In this document: positions 58,776 through 62,693 of the stretch, in pieces
Position numbering within the stretch: position 1 is the stretch's first letter
Layout: every line of letters begins with the position of its first letter
Source: Clostridia bacterium
GTDB taxonomy: Bacteria; Bacillota; Clostridia; Saccharofermentanales; Saccharofermentanaceae
NCBI GenBank assembly: GCA_024403735.1
Contig: JAKSRG010000007.1
Span: 19,430-83,429 of the forward strand
Reading direction: 5' to 3'
DNA: 64,000 nt
Program-made: the position numbers and the translations under genes
Notes under the pieces: model-generated
Told to the model about the DNA's origin: nothing
The model's input: the letters and a program-made list of their open reading frames with translations, nothing else
The model's database searches: none

Positions 58776-61133
58776 TTACTTGTTCTCATCATCCTTACGG
58801 ATAGCTACACGACGGATCTTACCAGAGATTGTCTTAGGAAGCTCTTCAACGAACTCAACGATACGTGGGTACTTGTATGGAGCTGTCTTTTCCTTAACGT
58901 AGTTCTGGATTTCCTTCTTGAGCTCTTCTGAAGCCTCAGCCTTACCAGGAACGAGAACGATAGTAGCCTTAACTACGATACCACGAACACCCTGTGGGTC
59001 AGGTGCACCAGTTACAGCACACTCGAGAACGTATGGGAGCTCCATGATTACTGACTCAATTTCGAATGGTCCGATACGGTAACCAGAAGACTTGATAACA
59101 TCGTCGATACGACCAACGTACCAGATGTAACCATCTTCATCCATCCAAGCTGTATCACCTGTGTGATAGTAGCCATCGTGCCATGCTTCAACTGTCTTCT
59201 CTTCATTTCTGTAGTAGCATGTGTAGAGACCTGTTGGAACTTTCTCAGAAGTCTTGATACAAATTTCACCAGTCTCACCAGGCTTACAATCCTTATCATC
59301 TGCATCGAGGATGTGGATGTCATAAAGTGGGTTTGGCTTACCCATTGAACCCATACGGATTGATGAACCAACGAGGTTAGCGATAGCGAGTGTTGTCTCT
59401 GTCTGACCGAAACCTTCCATCAAACGGATACCTGTTGCCTTAATCCACTGGTTGAATACTTCAGGGTTAAGAGCCTCACCAGCTGTTGTAGCGTACTTGA
59501 TAGAAGTGAGATCGTACTTAGAAAGATCTTCCTTAACAAGGAAACGGAACATTGTAGGTGGAGCACAGAATGTTGTGATGCCATACTTAGCGAACATTGG
59601 GAGGATCTCATCTGACTTGAACTTATCGAAGTCGAATGTGAATACAGGTGCTTCACAGAGCCACTGTCCATAGATCTTACCCCAGAGAGCCTTACCCCAA
59701 CCTGTATCAGAGATTGTGAAGTGGAGGCCATTAGGGTCAACGTTGTGCCAGTGCTTAGCTGTTGTGATGTGGCCTAATGCATAGAGGTGTGAGTGCATAG
59801 CCATCTTTGGATAACCTGTTGTACCAGATGTGAAGAACATTACCATTGGCTCTGAACCACATGAGCAATCCTCAGGACGCTCGAAAACATCTGAACACTC
59901 TTCGATACCCTTATCAAAGTCGAGCCACTCACCACGAGCGCCGTTAACCATCATGAACTTTGTAGGAGCATCTGCACCCATAGCCTTAGCAGCCTTCATA
60001 GCTTCCTCAGCTGTATCTCCATCTGGTGTCATTACTACTGCAGATACACCAGCAGCCTTATAACGATAATCGAAGTCATGCTCACGGAGGAGGCAAGTAG
60101 CAGGGATTGCAACAGCACCGAGCTTCTCAAGACCTACGATAGAGAACCAGAACTGGTAGTGTCTCTTGAGGATAAGCATTACCTTATCGCCCTTCTTGAT
60201 ACCGAGGCTCTTGAAGTAGTTAGCAGCCTGGTTTGTCTTCTTGCTCATCTCTTCGAATGTGAATCTGTGGTCTGTTACGCCATCCTTAGCAACCCACATC
60301 ATAGCTGTCTTATCTGGTGTCTTCTTAGCGATTTCATCTACAACGTCGAAACCGAAGTTGAACTTAGCACATGCATTCTCGTGGAAACCAACCTTAACGA
60401 GCTTGCCTGTTGCATCGAACTCATCGTAGAAGAAGTGCTTGTAAACAGGATCTACTACATTTGTAGCGAGGTCTGTATTTGTTACGCTATCTGTCTTGAG
60501 CTCAACCTTAAGAGTTTCCTTACGTGTCTTACCCTCTGTCCATGACTCTGGGTTGAAGATAACTGATGTGAATTCGCAGCTCTCACCACCAACAGCACAC
60601 TCATAGTGAGGTGTCATTGAATCGAAGAAGATTGAATCGCCTTCGTGGAGGATTTCTGAATTCTCACCAAGGAGAACCTTAAGAGTACCCTTTGTAACAA
60701 CGAACATCTCCTGACCAGCATGTGAGTGCATCTCATATGGTGGGTTAAGAGCATCGTCTGAATAAGGGATCTCTACATGATATGGCTCGAAATACTTGTT
60801 TCTGAAACGTGAACCAAGGCGCTCGAACTTGTAACCATCACGTCTTGCGATGTTACGACCTTCACCCTTACGAGTAACTGTGTACTCTGTGAGGGAAGGA
60901 GCAGAACCTTCCATAACTTCACTGATATCGATTTCAGCTACAGTTGCGAACTTGCTCAAGAAACTGTAGTTGAAGTCCTTCTCGCCGTGCTCGTAATAAA
61001 CATATTCAGACTCTGGCATGCCCATCTTCTCAGCCATCTCAGCGAGAGTGAGTTCCATGTCAAGACGGATAGCCTTGAGACGATCAGCGATTTCCTGAAT
61101 ATTCTTATTCATGTTCACTTCATTGTTTGACAT
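58776..61133 (-). CDS. fusion protein: XRE-type HTH, cupin, and AMP-forming acyl-CoA synthetase (medium-chain/ACSM-like)
   Basis: The track ORF runs to 61241. I prefer ATG 61133, with GGAGGC upstream. The HTH is LTLAEMAEKMGMPESEYVYYEHGEK. The cupin is HSHAGQEMFVVTKGTL...GDSIFFDS..PH. The AMP-binding motif is TSGTTGYPK, followed by YHTGDTAWMDEDGYIWYVGRIDDVIKSSGYRIGPFEIE. Confidence 0.85.
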   Translation of the reverse strand: MSNNEVNMNKNIQEIADRLKAIRLDMELTLAEMAEKMGMPESEYVYYEHGEKDFNYSFLSKFATVAEIDISEVMEGSAPSLTEYTVTRKGEGRNIARRDGYKFERLGSRFRNKYFEPYHVEIPYSDDALNPPYEMHSHAGQEMFVVTKGTLKVLLGENSEILHEGDSIFFDSMTPHYECAVGGESCEFTSVIFNPESWTEGKTRKETLKVELKTDSVTNTDLATNVVDPVYKHFFYDEFDATGKLVKVGFHENACAKFNFGFDVVDEIAKKTPDKTAMMWVAKDGVTDHRFTFEEMSKKTNQAANYFKSLGIKKGDKVMLILKRHYQFWFSIVGLEKLGAVAIPATCLLREHDFDYRYKAAGVSAVVMTPDGDTAEEAMKAAKAMGADAPTKFMMVNGARGEWLDFDKGIEECSDVFERPEDCSCGSEPMVMFFTSGTTGYPKMAMHSHLYALGHITTAKHWHNVDPNGLHFTISDTGWGKALWGKIYGQWLCEAPVFTFDFDKFKSDEILPMFAKYGITTFCAPPTMFRFLVKEDLSKYDLTSIKYATTAGEALNPEVFNQWIKATGIRLMEGFGQTETTLAIANLVGSSIRMGSMGKPNPLYDIHILDADDKDCKPGETGEICIKTSEKVPTGLYTCYYRNEEKTVEAWHDGYYHTGDTAWMDEDGYIWYVGRIDDVIKSSGYRIGPFEIESVIMELPYVLECAVTGAPDPQGVRGIVVKATIVLVPGKAEASEELKKEIQNYVKEKTAPYKYPRIVEFVEELPKTISGKIRRVAIRKDDENK

Positions 61134-61149
61134 AATGTGCCTCCTTAGA

Positions 61150-61445
61150 TTATTACGGGCTTTTTTTAAGCAAAAAAAAAGCCCAAGCATTAAATTACTG
61201 CTTGAGACGAAATAAATTCCGCGGTACCACTCAAATTGCAACCATTACGTTGCCACCTTATTGGATTCTAACAAACCCCTTGCCTTAACGCGGCTGCCTT
61301 CGGGTATAGTCTACTAATGAGATAACTCATATTCGGTATACCAGCTCAGAAGCGATAATCTTTGGTAAATAATAATGTCAACTCTCAGCAACACGTTGAC
61401 TCTCTGTGAGAATTATCTGCCAGACCTTCTTCGTCATAGCTTTTG
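61150..61445 (-). promoter_or_regulatory. T-box riboswitch leader (tRNA-sensing transcription attenuator)
   Basis: All elements are on the minus strand. The T-box motif is AAUUUGAGUGGUACCGCGG (plus-strand 61219-61237). The terminator stem is CUCAAGC/GCUUGGG (61182-61188 / 61200-61206), followed by U9 (61172-61180). UUGAG in the T-box can alternatively pair with the same CUCAA (antiterminator). Stem I has K-turn-like AUGA/UGA, an AGAGAG bulge and a GUCAAC/GUUGAC distal helix. The promoter is TTGACA-17-TATTCT at 61492-61464. Confidence 0.8.
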
Positions 61446-61700
61446 AATATAGAACATAGACGTAGAATAATATCAATAAACATAATTGTCAACAGTGTTT
61501 TCAAGAATTCAAAAGAAAATGAATTAATGTGTCAAAAAAGAGCAAAAATTCAACACAAATGCGCAAAATCGTACAGTTTTAATACTTTGTTTACACATTA
61601 AGACGAAACCAGTATGTTTGTTAACAAATTGTCAAAGCAATCATAATATTCGATTAGCAAAATATAGGCATAAGGTCGATTACTATACGGAGGAATGATT

Positions 61701-62693
61701 ATGTGTAAGCAATATCTTGTTACAGGCGGAGCGAGCCAGTTAGGTGAACACTTAGTAAAGATGTTACTTGAAAGAGGCGATAAGGTACGTATCCTCATTG
61801 GCGCCGATGATGACGACACAGCATTCGAAGGCATGGACGTTGAGATTTTCAGAGGCGAAACATTCCAGAAAGATACAATGAAGGATTTCTTCACAATCGA
61901 AGATCCAAGAAGTGCTATTCTTGTTCACGCTGACGAGCGTGTATCAATTACTAATTCCAAAGACCTTCTTATGAGAAGAGTTAATGTTTCAGGCGCAGTA
62001 AATATCATTGATTTGTGTATTAAGAATAAGATTGGAAGACTTGTATATCTCAGTTCAGCATATGCGCTCCCACCATCAAAAGATGGTTACGTATCTGGTC
62101 AGGAGTTCACTTTCAATCGTTATGCAGTAGAAGGTGATTATGCTCAGACTAAGGCTGAGGCTTCTTCTTACTTGATGGAGAAGATTACTCTTAACAAGTT
62201 CGATGCAGTTCTTGTACTTCCTACATTTATCATTGGTCCAGGCGCACGTAAGGATTCTGATATTGGTAAGGTTCTTAACGGTTATCTTACACACAACGTT
62301 GATCTCGTTAACGGCGGTCACGTATTCGTAGATGTAAGAGATGTTGTAGCAGGCATCATTGCAGCAGCTGAGAAGGGTGTTAGAGGTGCTGGCTATATTC
62401 TTACAGGCGAGTACAGAAGCACAGTTGATTTCTTCCAGGATGTATGCGAGGCTACAGGCGTTGATAAGGGTCAGAAGACACTTCCTAACTGGATCCTCAA
62501 TAAGTCAGTTGCTAAGTTCGTAGATACTTACTACAAGCTCGTTCATAAGAAGAATCCAAAGGATGTATATGCACTCTTTACTACATCCCCTGACACACGT
62601 TACGATTCATCAAGCGCTAGCGAGATCCTCGAGCTCGACGGTCAGACAAGCTTCAAGGATTCACTTAAGGAAACAATCTCAAGCGCTATCTAA
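61701..62693 (+). CDS. NAD(P)-dependent epimerase/dehydratase-family (extended SDR) protein
   Basis: ATG 61701 lies 6 nt after ACGGAGGA. The Rossmann motif is VTGGASQLGEHLV and the catalytic motif is YAQTK (YxxxK). Confidence 0.8.
   Translation: MCKQYLVTGGASQLGEHLVKMLLERGDKVRILIGADDDDTAFEGMDVEIFRGETFQKDTMKDFFTIEDPRSAILVHADERVSITNSKDLLMRRVNVSGAVNIIDLCIKNKIGRLVYLSSAYALPPSKDGYVSGQEFTFNRYAVEGDYAQTKAEASSYLMEKITLNKFDAVLVLPTFIIGPGARKDSDIGKVLNGYLTHNVDLVNGGHVFVDVRDVVAGIIAAAEKGVRGAGYILTGEYRSTVDFFQDVCEATGVDKGQKTLPNWILNKSVAKFVDTYYKLVHKKNPKDVYALFTTSPDTRYDSSSASEILELDGQTSFKDSLKETISSAI

What the first reader, a model, noticed from the sequence alone, without database searches (positions are those of the whole stretch)
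61150..61445. T-box riboswitch controlling an acyl-CoA-synthetase fusion gene rather than an aaRS, biosynthesis or transporter gene
**Evidence for the T-box (minus strand).**
- The promoter is TTGACA-17-TATTCT.
- Stem I has a K-turn-like AUGA/UGA, an AGAGAG bulge and a GUCAAC/GUUGAC distal helix.
- The conserved T-box sequence is AAUUUGAGUGGUACCGCGG.
- UUGAG/CUCAA antiterminator pairing competes with a CUCAAGC/GCUUGGG-U9 terminator.
- The RBS and ATG at 61133 follow.

**Why the target is unusual.**
- T-boxes are known to regulate aminoacyl-tRNA synthetases, amino-acid biosynthesis and transport.
- Here the only downstream gene is an HTH-cupin-AMP-ligase fusion.
- That implies tRNA-charging control of an acyl-activating enzyme, perhaps one acting on an amino-acid-derived acid.

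**Specifier.** It cannot be fixed by eye. The loop reads ...AUUUACCAAAG..., and the candidates are ACC (Thr, my best guess), CCA (Pro), UAC (Tyr) and AAA (Lys).

**Other feature.** The U9 tract is followed by a complementary A7 tract, giving the alternative GGGC-U9...A7-GCCC pairing.
Basis: partly seen in the sequence, partly recalled or inferred. Interest (0 to 1): 0.62.

Follow-up and report, generated by a model that had tools for sequence, protein, structure and literature searches.

The report
Isoleucine T-box controlling branched-acid CoA ligase
A genuine tRNA-sensing T-box RNA switch tuned to isoleucine (not threonine) controls an enzyme that most likely activates the fermentation acid 2-methylbutyrate, probably so this rumen-type bacterium can rebuild isoleucine from it, which gives candidate genes and a regulator for a pathway known only from 1960s physiology.

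Summary
Rfam RF00230 matches window 61446..61200 (minus strand) over the whole model at 90.5 bits (E 2e-20). That is just under Rfam 15's 93-bit gathering score, so a default scan misses it.

The specifier is AUC (Ile), at 61356..61354.

Of 80 orthologous loci, 65 carry the same leader. All 63 leaders that could be read have AUC, while the surrounding helices covary.

The ligase part is 54% identical to MacsMa (PDB 3ETC), and its best curated family match is MbcS. Both are 2-methylbutyrate-preferring CoA ligases.

The genome also has a VorB-family 2-oxoacid:ferredoxin oxidoreductase, class-IV aminotransferases, and a Phe T-box before a PaaK-like ligase. Related genomes have Val and Leu T-boxes before other acid-CoA ligases.

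Best reading: Ile shortage induces 2-methylbutyrate activation for reductive carboxylation to isoleucine. Supply of anteiso fatty-acid primer is the main rival.

I found no published description. No expression data were available, and no tRNA-Ile gene is in the assembly.

The parts
61464..61492 (-). Sigma-70-type promoter TTGACA-17-TATTCT of the leader
   Evidence: 10 of 12 matches. No other promoter-like site on this strand lies between it and the ATG.
61200..61446 (-). T-box leader as matched by RF00230 (stem I, stem II, IIA/B region, stem III, antiterminator)
   Evidence: 90.5 bits, E 2.3e-20, model 1-219; the structure is supported by covariation across 62 leaders.
61344..61440 (-). Stem I. 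It contains the K-turn base (GC..AUGA / UGAGC), the specifier loop, the AGAGAG bulge (61405..61400) and the distal GUCAAC/GUUGAC helix with a GCUGAGA loop.
   Evidence: helices 1, 2, 4 and 5: 84-100% of cells paired, with compensatory changes.
61354..61356 (-). Specifier codon AUC (Ile), followed by G61353 and the helix CUUC
   Evidence: aligned to the model's specifier triplet; the same columns hold UUC in the Phe leader and AUC in the ilvA leader. ATC is invariant in all aligned orthologous leaders.
61219..61237 (-). Conserved T-box sequence AAUUUGAGUGGUACCGCGG. The UGGU bulge (61229..61226) would pair with the tRNA 3' end ACCA.
   Evidence: AGTGGTACCGCG is present in 65 of 80 orthologous loci.
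61202..61234 (-). Antiterminator: UUGAG/CUCAA outer helix, 7-nt bulge, GCGGA/UUCGU inner helix
   Evidence: consensus-structure line.: -6.0 kcal/mol. helices 9 and 10: 98-100% paired.
61172..61208 (-). Intrinsic terminator: hairpin 61208..61181 (9-nt loop) plus U9 at 61180..61172. Its 5' arm overlaps the antiterminator's 3' strand.
   Evidence: -10.3 kcal/mol; orthologues have equivalent, often longer, terminators.
61157..61184 (-). Second hairpin GGGC-U7 / A7-GCCC, which encloses the U tract. Function unknown.
   Evidence: -14.5 kcal/mol. Analogous GGGGC-U8-GCCCC occurs only in L012, L015-L018 and roughly L046. Strain variants at 61161 and 61167.
58776..61133 (-). Regulated gene: 785-aa fusion of XRE-type HTH (residues 19-72), cupin (134-191) and an adenylate-forming acyl-CoA ligase (about 256-785). 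RBS AAGGAGG at 61146..61140.
   Evidence: 53.7% identity to MacsMa (3ETC); best NCBIfam match is MbcS.

Best explanation
This is a class-I transcriptional T-box riboswitch specific for tRNA-Ile (specifier AUC).

How the switch works:
- When isoleucine is plentiful, charged tRNA-Ile cannot stabilise the antiterminator. The terminator (61208..61181 plus U9) forms and transcription stops before the gene.
- When tRNA-Ile is uncharged, its anticodon GAU pairs with AUC in stem I. Its free ACCA end pairs with the UGGU bulge, the antiterminator holds, and the gene is transcribed.

What the gene does: it encodes an HTH-cupin module fused to a short branched-chain acid-CoA ligase that most likely makes 2-methylbutyryl-CoA from external 2-methylbutyrate.

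Inferred pathway: the acyl-CoA is reductively carboxylated by the genome's unlinked VorB-family 2-oxoacid:ferredoxin oxidoreductase to 2-oxo-3-methylvalerate. That is then transaminated to isoleucine. This is the rumen pathway of Robinson and Allison.

Basis of each step:
- Shown here: the RNA family, the specifier, conservation and covariation, and the enzyme's relatives.
- Inferred: the substrate, the carboxylation step, and regulation in vivo.
For: RNA:
- Full-length RF00230 match, E 2.3e-20.
- The Rfam consensus structure, projected on an unbiased MAFFT alignment of 62 leaders, gives 79.5% of cells paired against 34-48% for slid partners. 304 cells change on both sides against 130 +/- 10 in shuffles, and 0 of 500 shuffles reach the observed value.
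- RNAalifold finds compensatory changes in 22 of 31 pairs.

Specifier:
- AUC sits on the model's specifier columns.
- It is invariant in 63 of 63 readable orthologous leaders while its neighbours vary.
- The leader closely resembles the AUC leader of the ilvA-like gene in the same genome.

Conservation:
- 65 of 80 orthologous loci have the leader.
- 12 of the 13 evaluable loci without it form one Ruminococcus paralogue clade.

Enzyme:
- 53.7% identity to MacsMa/3ETC. Its preferred substrate, and the only one that completes the reaction, is 2-methylbutyrate (PMC10455477).
- The best NCBIfam match is MbcS, which is selective for 2-methylbutyrate and isobutyrate (PMC10026030).

Rest of the pathway in the genome:
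- VorB-family alpha subunit at 552 bits, above the 399-bit cut-off, with delta, beta and gamma subunits.
- Two class-IV aminotransferases.

Parallel cases that fit amino-acid synthesis:
- Phe (UUC) T-box before a PaaK-like ligase, in this genome and in L074.
- Val (GUA) T-boxes before tandem sister ligases in L082 and L087, and Leu (CUC) T-boxes before another ligase fusion in L028 and L038.

Physiology: 2-methylbutyrate to Ile, isobutyrate to Val, isovalerate to Leu and phenylacetate to Phe are documented rumen routes (PMC7356843 and its references).
Against: - No transcript data. The five runs that hold the sequence behave as metagenome assemblies.
- No tRNA-Ile gene is in the assembly (35 tRNAs), so anticodon and discriminator pairing could not be checked.
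- The substrate is inferred from homologues at 54% identity. The NCBIfam MbcS score (428 bits) is far below its equivalog cut-off of 850.
- The VOR genes are unlinked to the ligase and have no T-box. None of the 80 loci has an oxidoreductase within 4 kb.
- The genome also keeps ilvA-, ilvB- and leuA-like genes under T-boxes, so the route would be a supplement and not a necessity.
- The base after the codon is G here and C in 18 orthologues, where A is usual.
- The role of the HTH-cupin module is unexplained.
Confidence: 0.62

Rival explanations
1. The RNA switch is the same, but the purpose of the 2-methylbutyryl-CoA is to prime anteiso branched-chain fatty-acid synthesis, as MbcS does in Staphylococcus aureus. 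When isoleucine is scarce the cell cannot derive the primer from Ile, so it scavenges the acid instead.
For: - The best curated family match is MbcS, whose documented role is supply of branched-chain fatty-acid primer (PMC10026030).
- The Ile, Val and Leu acids are all primers for branched-chain fatty acids.
- The ligase is not clustered with VOR.
Against: - The same genomes put a Phe T-box before a phenylacetate-type ligase. Phenylacetyl-CoA has no role as a lipid primer.
- T-boxes report tRNA charging, that is, demand from protein synthesis.
- The two fates are not exclusive, because one acyl-CoA pool can serve both.
Confidence: 0.2
2. The ligase activates propionate or another short straight-chain acid. 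Propionyl-CoA is then carboxylated to 2-oxobutyrate, which enters the ordinary Ile pathway downstream of threonine dehydratase.
For: - The other Ile T-box in the genome controls the ilvA-like gene, which makes 2-oxobutyrate.
- MacsMa adenylates C3-C8 acids (PMC10455477).
Against: - MacsMa completes the CoA step only with 2-methylbutyrate.
- Recently duplicated Val-tuned sister ligases fit a pairing of 2-methylbutyrate with Ile and isobutyrate with Val. They do not fit propionate.
Confidence: 0.07
3. The protein is mainly a transcription factor (XRE HTH plus ligand-binding cupin) whose ligase part serves as a sensor. The T-box would then control a regulator and not a metabolic step.
For: - HTH_3 and Cupin_2 matches.
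- The predicted fold resembles the Vibrio cholerae HTH_3 regulator 1Y9Q.
- The N-terminal module is under strong constraint, with 33 invariant positions in 25 sequences.
Against: - All adenylate-forming core motifs and the catalytic Lys are intact.
- The same fold search ranks the enzymes HppE and HEPD equally high, and in those the HTH-like domain is not known to bind DNA (my own knowledge).
- The HTH_3 score is barely above its cut-off (24.1 against 23).
- The putative recognition helix is rich in Glu and Tyr.
- No operator-like repeat was found in this leader or promoter.
Confidence: 0.06
4. The leader is a decaying or non-functional T-box, since it scores below Rfam's gathering score, and the gene is expressed constitutively.
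For: It scores 90.5 bits against a 93-bit cut-off. The T-box sequence reads GAGUGG where GGGUGG is the consensus.
Against: - The match is full-length at E 2e-20, and every functional element is intact.
- GAGUGG is shared by all 65 orthologous leaders, and the partner CUCA keeps the pairing (helix 9).
- 4 of this genome's 9 T-boxes fall below the cut-off, including the leaders of the trpE-like and ilvA-like genes.
- The 40 nt between the terminator and the ATG leave no room for a second promoter.
Confidence: 0.02

Closest known systems
Ile-specific transcriptional T-box leaders (Rfam RF00230), as before ileS in Bacillus subtilis and before ilv genes in Clostridia
   Same: It has stem I with a K-turn, a specifier loop with AUC, an AG bulge and distal loop, stems II and III, the T-box sequence with a UGGN bulge, and mutually exclusive antiterminator and terminator. 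The expected logic is also the same: uncharged tRNA-Ile switches the gene on.
   Different: The controlled gene is a carboxylic-acid CoA ligase fused to an HTH-cupin module. It is not an aminoacyl-tRNA synthetase, a classical biosynthesis gene or a transporter. The T-box surveys I could read (Wels 2008 PMC2494555, Sun 2013 PMC3766115, TBDB PMC7778990) never mention CoA ligases. The score lies just below Rfam 15's gathering score.
MacsMa, medium-chain acyl-CoA synthetase of Methanosarcina acetivorans (PDB 3ETC)
   Same: 53.7% identity over 523 residues of the ligase part, with all core motifs aligned. 2-Methylbutyrate is MacsMa's preferred substrate.
   Different: MacsMa is archaeal. It has no HTH-cupin extension and no T-box. 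The substrate of the window's enzyme is untested.
MbcS, methylbutyryl-CoA synthetase of Staphylococcus aureus (NCBIfam NF047394)
   Same: It is the best curated family match (428 bits, positions 12-522 of the 525-position profile). MbcS is selective for 2-methylbutyrate and isobutyrate.
   Different: The score is far below the equivalog cut-off of 850. MbcS serves fatty-acid priming and is not known to be T-box controlled. It lacks the N-terminal module.
Two-domain XRE-HTH plus cupin proteins: HppE/HEPD enzymes and HTH_3-cupin regulators (PDB 1ZZ7, 1Y9Q)
   Same: The predicted N-terminal fold is a five-helix HTH domain plus a cupin barrel. The H138, E142 and H176 triad aligns with the metal ligands of HppE.
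   Different: Here the module is fused to a ligase. TM-scores are low (0.26-0.29 on the query) because the domain orientation differs and the linkers are modelled with low confidence. Neither DNA binding nor metal binding has been tested.

Membership tests
T-box leader (RF00230) | Significant match to the family covariance model over its whole length | tested here: met
   90.5 bits, E 2.3e-20, model 1-219 of 219. The score is 2.5 bits under the curated gathering score of 93, so the strict Rfam criterion is narrowly missed.
T-box leader (RF00230) | Stem I with a K-turn at the base, a specifier loop, an AG bulge and a distal loop that docks the tRNA elbow | tested here: met
   sequence and consensus-structure line., helices 1, 2, 4 and 5: 84-100% paired with compensatory changes (for example AU 34 against GC 27 at the K-turn helix).
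T-box leader (RF00230) | A specifier codon at the 3' side of the specifier loop that matches one tRNA | tested here: met
   AUC at 61356..61354 lies on the model's specifier columns. It is invariant in 63 of 63 readable orthologues.
T-box leader (RF00230) | A conserved T-box sequence forming a bulged antiterminator that competes with a terminator followed by a U run | tested here: met
   antiterminator -6.0 and terminator -10.3 kcal/mol, sharing 61208..61202, then U9. One search, helices 9 and 10.
T-box leader (RF00230) | UGGN bulge complementary to NCCA of the cognate tRNA; a cognate tRNA is present | not testable with these tools
   The bulge reads UGGU, which expects discriminator A. ARAGORN finds only 35 tRNAs and no tRNA-Ile in the assembly.
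T-box leader (RF00230) | tRNA-dependent antitermination | not testable with these tools
   This needs in vitro transcription or reporter assays. The available sequencing runs gave no transcript information.
Adenylate-forming (ANL) acyl-CoA synthetases, MacsMa/MbcS branch | AMP-binding and AMP-binding_C domains with intact core motifs (TSGTTGxPK, GxGQTE, YHTGD, GRxDD...SGxxI, PKTxSGKIxR) | tested here: met
   PF00501 at 207.6 bits and PF13193 at 70.4 bits. The motifs can be read in the translation and align to 3ETC.
Adenylate-forming (ANL) acyl-CoA synthetases, MacsMa/MbcS branch | Equivalog-level match to MbcS (NF047394) | tested here: not met
   428.3 bits against a cut-off of 850. It is the best-matching named family but not an equivalog.
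Adenylate-forming (ANL) acyl-CoA synthetases, MacsMa/MbcS branch | Preference for 2-methylbutyrate | not testable with these tools
   Inferred from 53.7% identity to MacsMa and from the Ile specifier. An enzyme assay is needed.
XRE-HTH plus cupin transcription regulators (PuuR-like) | An HTH_3 domain followed by a Cupin_2 domain | tested here: met
   HTH_3 at 24.1 bits (cut-off 23) and Cupin_2 at 45.6 bits. The model shows five helices plus a barrel.
XRE-HTH plus cupin transcription regulators (PuuR-like) | Sequence-specific DNA binding, with an operator near regulated genes | tested here: inconclusive
   No palindrome other than RNA elements was found in this promoter or leader. The fold matches both a regulator (1Y9Q) and the enzymes HppE and HEPD.

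The most novel reading that the evidence does not exclude
Rumen and gut Clostridia may run a modular acid-salvage regulon sensed through tRNA charging. T-boxes for Ile, Val, Leu and Phe would each gate the CoA ligase for the matching fermentation acid: 2-methylbutyrate, isobutyrate, isovalerate and phenylacetate. In addition, the HTH-cupin module fused to the Ile and Val ligases would make them trigger enzymes. It would sense a metal, an acid or a 2-oxoacid and bind DNA or RNA to co-ordinate the unlinked carboxylating oxidoreductase. The pathway would then be switched by both demand (tRNA charge) and supply (acid availability).
Probability: 0.15. Interest if true: 0.8.

Novelty: new variant of a known kind. 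Interest (0 to 1): 0.62.

Why it matters
Rumen and gut anaerobes have been known since the 1960s to build Ile, Val, Leu and Phe by carboxylating 2-methylbutyrate, isobutyrate, isovalerate and phenylacetate. These iso-acids are fed to ruminants to boost fibre digesters. To my knowledge the genes for the activation step, and their regulation, have not been assigned.

An invariant Ile codon in a T-box in front of a 2-methylbutyrate-type ligase, across dozens of species, is an independent functional label written by evolution. It nominates the ligase, predicts when it is expressed, and makes the pathway testable in cultured Ruminococcus.

The finding also extends the T-box regulon to a fourth class of target, precursor-acid activation. 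It further shows that Rfam 15's 93-bit cut-off hides many genuine T-boxes in these genomes: 4 of 9 here, and 7 of the 9 T-box-bearing loci scanned at the gathering score.

Tried and rejected
- Rfam at gathering score on the window found nothing. The explanation is the strict cut-off, not absence of the element.
- Transcript evidence: five runs hold the sequence, but their contigs cover gene and spacer evenly, like metagenomes. They give no 5' ends and no attenuation signal.
- Cognate tRNA: there is no tRNA-Ile gene in the 59-contig assembly.
- Operon with the carboxylating enzyme: no OFOR or IOR homologue lies within 4 kb in any of the 80 loci, so synteny does not support the pathway in this orthologue set.
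- Paralogues in this genome: none. The next best hit is 27% identical.
- Operator for the HTH: nothing in this leader. A conserved pair of complementary boxes flanking the T-box exists only in another clade.
- Fold of the N-terminal module: it matches both enzymes and regulators, so it does not decide the question.
- Literature: no paper in the searched library (open-access PubMed Central and bioRxiv full text) holds both 'T-box' and 'phenylacetate-CoA ligase'. Searches combining T-box with acyl-CoA terms found no paper describing T-box control of an acyl-CoA ligase. Vitreschak 2008, Gutierrez-Preciado 2009 and Robinson and Allison 1969 are not held, so prior mention there cannot be excluded.

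Full report
**1. What is there**

On the minus strand, a near-consensus promoter (TTGACA-17-TATTCT, 61492..61464) is followed by a 247-nt stretch (61446..61200). This stretch matches the Rfam T-box model RF00230 from its first to its last position at 90.5 bits, E 2.3e-20. A default scan of the window lists nothing, because Rfam 15 sets the gathering score at 93 bits. In this 2.66-Mb genome, nine T-box matches score 85-142 bits and four of them fall below the cut-off. Those four include the leaders of the trpE-like and ilvA-like genes.

- the K-turn base of stem I (GCUAUGA...UGAGC);
- AGAGAG (61405..61400);
- the GUCAAC/GUUGAC distal helix;
- the T-box sequence AAUUUGAGUGGUACCGCGG (61237..61219);
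- an antiterminator (-6.0 kcal/mol) whose 3' strand is shared with a terminator hairpin (61208..61181, -10.3 kcal/mol), followed by U9;
- AAGGAGG and the ATG at 61133.

The simple terminator scan missed the hairpin only because its loop is 9 nt. Only 40 nt separate the U tract from the ATG, and no promoter-like site lies there.

**2. The specifier**

In Rfam's alignment, the triplet on the model's specifier columns is AUC (61356..61354). It is followed by G and the helix CUUC that pairs with GAAG. The same columns hold UUC in the genome's Phe leader and AUC in the leader of its ilvA-like gene. That ilvA leader is nearly identical to ours around the stem I base.

**3. Is it conserved?**

The fusion protein belongs to a very large family. 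All 8000 scored candidates matched at E <= 0.001. All 120 hits listed, at 58-92% identity, carry the cupin and ligase domains, and most also a precomputed HTH domain. The closest named relative is from a Saccharofermentans MAG at 91% identity.

I fetched 80 loci from named genomes, out of at least 591. They are mostly rumen and gut Oscillospiraceae, Ruminococcus, Acutalibacteraceae and Lachnospiraceae.
- 65 loci have AGTGGTACCGCG 84-275 nt upstream of the gene.
- Of the 15 without it, two have under 200 nt of upstream sequence.
- 12 of the other 13 form a single Ruminococcus paralogue clade (98% SH-aLRT). One MAG holds both a copy with the T-box and a copy without it.
- The window's protein sits in a 99%-supported clade whose evaluable members all carry the leader.

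In 56 loci a rule-based parse finds ATC before the stem I base helix. Seven more show it by eye, and two are cut by contig ends. In a MAFFT alignment of 62 leaders the three letters are invariant, while the flanking helices change.

A sample of leaders was confirmed by Rfam at 87-115 bits.

**4. Is the structure real?**

RNAalifold recovers the stem I distal helix, stem II, the IIA/B region and stem III. Compensatory changes occur in 22 of 31 pairs.

I then projected Rfam's consensus structure for the window onto the same alignment, which was not fitted to that structure:
- 79.5% of cells are paired, against 34-48% when partners are slid by 1-3 columns.
- 304 cells change on both sides, against 130 +/- 10 in shuffles (0 of 500 reach the observed value).
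- The covariation score is 0.288, against 0.05-0.17 for the slid controls.

Two helices (3 and 8) pair poorly in this projection. Part of stem I and stem III align one column out of register with the window's row. RNAalifold's own call for stem III shows 25 compensatory sequences at one pair.

**5. The regulated gene**

The 785-aa product has HTH_3 (residues 19-72), Cupin_2 (134-191), AMP-binding (266-629) and AMP-binding_C (691-772) domains. The in-frame TTG at 61241 that the ORF list offers lies inside the T-box. The ATG at 61133, with its RBS, matches the length of the homologues. The next gene downstream is convergent, so the transcript carries one gene.

The ligase part is 53.7% identical over 523 residues to MacsMa of Methanosarcina acetivorans (3ETC, E 2e-191). 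MacsMa's preferred substrate is 2-methylbutyrate, and that is the only substrate with which it completes the CoA step (PMC10455477).

The best NCBIfam match is MbcS of Staphylococcus aureus, at 428 bits and below the equivalog cut-off of 850. MbcS is selective for 2-methylbutyrate and isobutyrate (PMC10026030).

**6. The rest of the pathway**

The genome encodes a four-subunit 2-oxoacid:ferredoxin oxidoreductase at C34:100.9-103.6 kb. Its alpha subunit passes the NCBIfam VorB model at 552 bits, above the 399-bit cut-off. It also encodes two IorAB-type enzymes, one of them next to a PaaK-like ligase, and two class-IV aminotransferases.

So activation, reductive carboxylation and transamination are all encoded. 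They are not linked, and none of the 80 loci has an oxidoreductase within 4 kb of the ligase.

- This genome has a Phe (UUC) T-box (93.3 bits) directly before a PaaK-like phenylacetate-CoA ligase. Three fetched loci happen to contain the same pair; L074 was confirmed at 95.3 bits.
- In L082 and L087 the Ile-controlled ligase is followed in tandem by a second copy with its own promoter and a T-box whose specifier is GUA (Val), at 88.5 and 95.1 bits. In L082 the two copies are 66% identical, and the Val copy groups with the Ile copies of L082 and L087 (100% support, order within the group unresolved). That is the pattern expected from a duplication followed by a specifier switch.
- In L028 and L038 a Leu (CUC) T-box (120 and 129 bits) precedes a different fusion, a TIM-barrel domain plus a fatty-acid-CoA-ligase-family domain.

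The acid-to-amino-acid pairs implied here are exactly the routes described for rumen bacteria: 2-methylbutyrate to Ile, isobutyrate to Val, isovalerate to Leu and phenylacetate to Phe (PMC7356843 citing Allison and co-workers).

**8. Mechanism proposed**

Uncharged tRNA-Ile stabilises the antiterminator and the ligase is made. External 2-methylbutyrate becomes 2-methylbutyryl-CoA. VOR carboxylates it reductively to 2-oxo-3-methylvalerate, and a transaminase gives isoleucine.

- Shown here: the RNA family, its specifier, its conservation and covariation, and the enzyme's nearest characterised relatives.
- Inferred: substrate, carboxylation and regulation in vivo.

The main rival is supply of the anteiso fatty-acid primer, which is the documented role of MbcS. 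It is compatible with the same switch and may operate in parallel. The Phe/PaaK-like parallel argues that amino-acid supply is the primary logic.

**9. The N-terminal module**

It is strongly conserved, with 33 invariant positions in 25 sequences. The model (pLDDT 74, both domains above 80, linkers low) shows a five-helix HTH domain and a cupin barrel. H138, E142 and H176 align with the metal ligands of HppE. Foldseek ranks the enzymes HppE and HEPD and a Vibrio HTH_3 regulator equally (E about 1e-10, TM 0.26-0.29 because the domain orientation differs). Whether it binds DNA, a metal or a metabolite stays open.

**10. The U9/A7 hairpin**

It is real (61184..61157, -14.5 kcal/mol). It is transcribed only after the termination decision, so it cannot act as a classical anti-terminator. 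Relatives L012, L015-L018 and roughly L046 have GGGGC-U8-GCCCC at the same place; most other loci do not. Strains in public runs differ by one A in the A tract and by one substitution in the loop. Its function is unknown.

**11. Novelty**

In the searchable literature I found no description of T-box control of any acyl- or aryl-CoA ligase. Three T-box surveys never mention CoA. Two key reviews are not held.

Notes from earlier agents of this scan describe the same kind of element in other genomes. I treated them as leads. I confirmed the Val-tuned twin and the Phe case with my own data. I did not find the reported linkage to VOR in my set of loci.

Noticed in passing
G000:C5:38576-40219 (locus L005 1501-1746 plus downstream), outside the window: A Phe (UUC) T-box (93.3 bits) lies directly before a 438-aa PaaK-like phenylacetate-CoA ligase (524 bits to TIGR02155, below its 646-bit cut-off). 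A second PaaK-like gene sits next to iorAB at C23:151110-154724. This points to phenylacetate-to-Phe salvage under T-box control.
   Followed up: partly
L082 6316-6559 and L087 6317-6563: Val (GUA) T-boxes precede a second, tandem HTH-cupin-ligase copy placed right after the Ile-controlled copy. In L082 the copies are 66% identical, and the Val copy groups with the Ile copies of L082 and L087 in the tree (100% support). This fits duplication followed by a specifier switch.
   Followed up: partly
L028 9505-9759 (-) and L038 3296-3549 (-): Leu (CUC) T-boxes (120 and 129 bits) precede an 840-860-aa fusion of a TIM-barrel (xylose-isomerase-like) domain and a fatty-acid-CoA-ligase-family domain. 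The same fusion sits just upstream of the Ile T-box in seven other loci. It is a candidate isovalerate activator.
   Followed up: partly
G000:C12:17873-18165 (L006), L039 7953-8200 (-), L070 around 8006 (-): A T-box precedes a sodium:solute symporter. The conserved loop GAA-UAC-(A/C) suggests Tyr, whereas Rfam's alignment of the own-genome copy would read ACC. In four loci this transporter lies within a few kb of the ligase gene, immediately adjacent in three.
   Followed up: partly
About 40 loci, e.g. L037, L044, L048, L054, L058, L063 (5' of stem I and 3' of the terminator): A near-invariant AAATTTGAATATCAC lies between the -10 box and stem I. A complementary TATTCAAATTT lies just after the terminator, and its variants are A-to-G changes that would keep G-U pairs. 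This could be a long-range RNA helix closing the whole leader, or paired operator half-sites. It is absent from the window.
   Followed up: no
window 61695-62693 (+): A divergently transcribed NAD-dependent epimerase/dehydratase-family gene has weak similarity to NAD_binding_4 and thioester-reductase domains. It is a conserved divergent neighbour of the T-box-ligase unit in 7 loci of the window's clade (46-68% identity). Its role is unknown.
   Followed up: partly
window 61161 and 61167: All four public assemblies that hold this stretch lack one A of the A7 tract and carry T>A at 61167. This is strain-level variation inside the U9/A7 hairpin.
   Followed up: no
whole genome G000: Only nine T-boxes were found, and only one precedes an aminoacyl-tRNA synthetase (thrS). 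One leader runs into a contig end with its gene unseen. The other seven control biosynthesis, acid-CoA ligase or transporter genes. Four of the nine score below Rfam 15's gathering score.
   Followed up: partly
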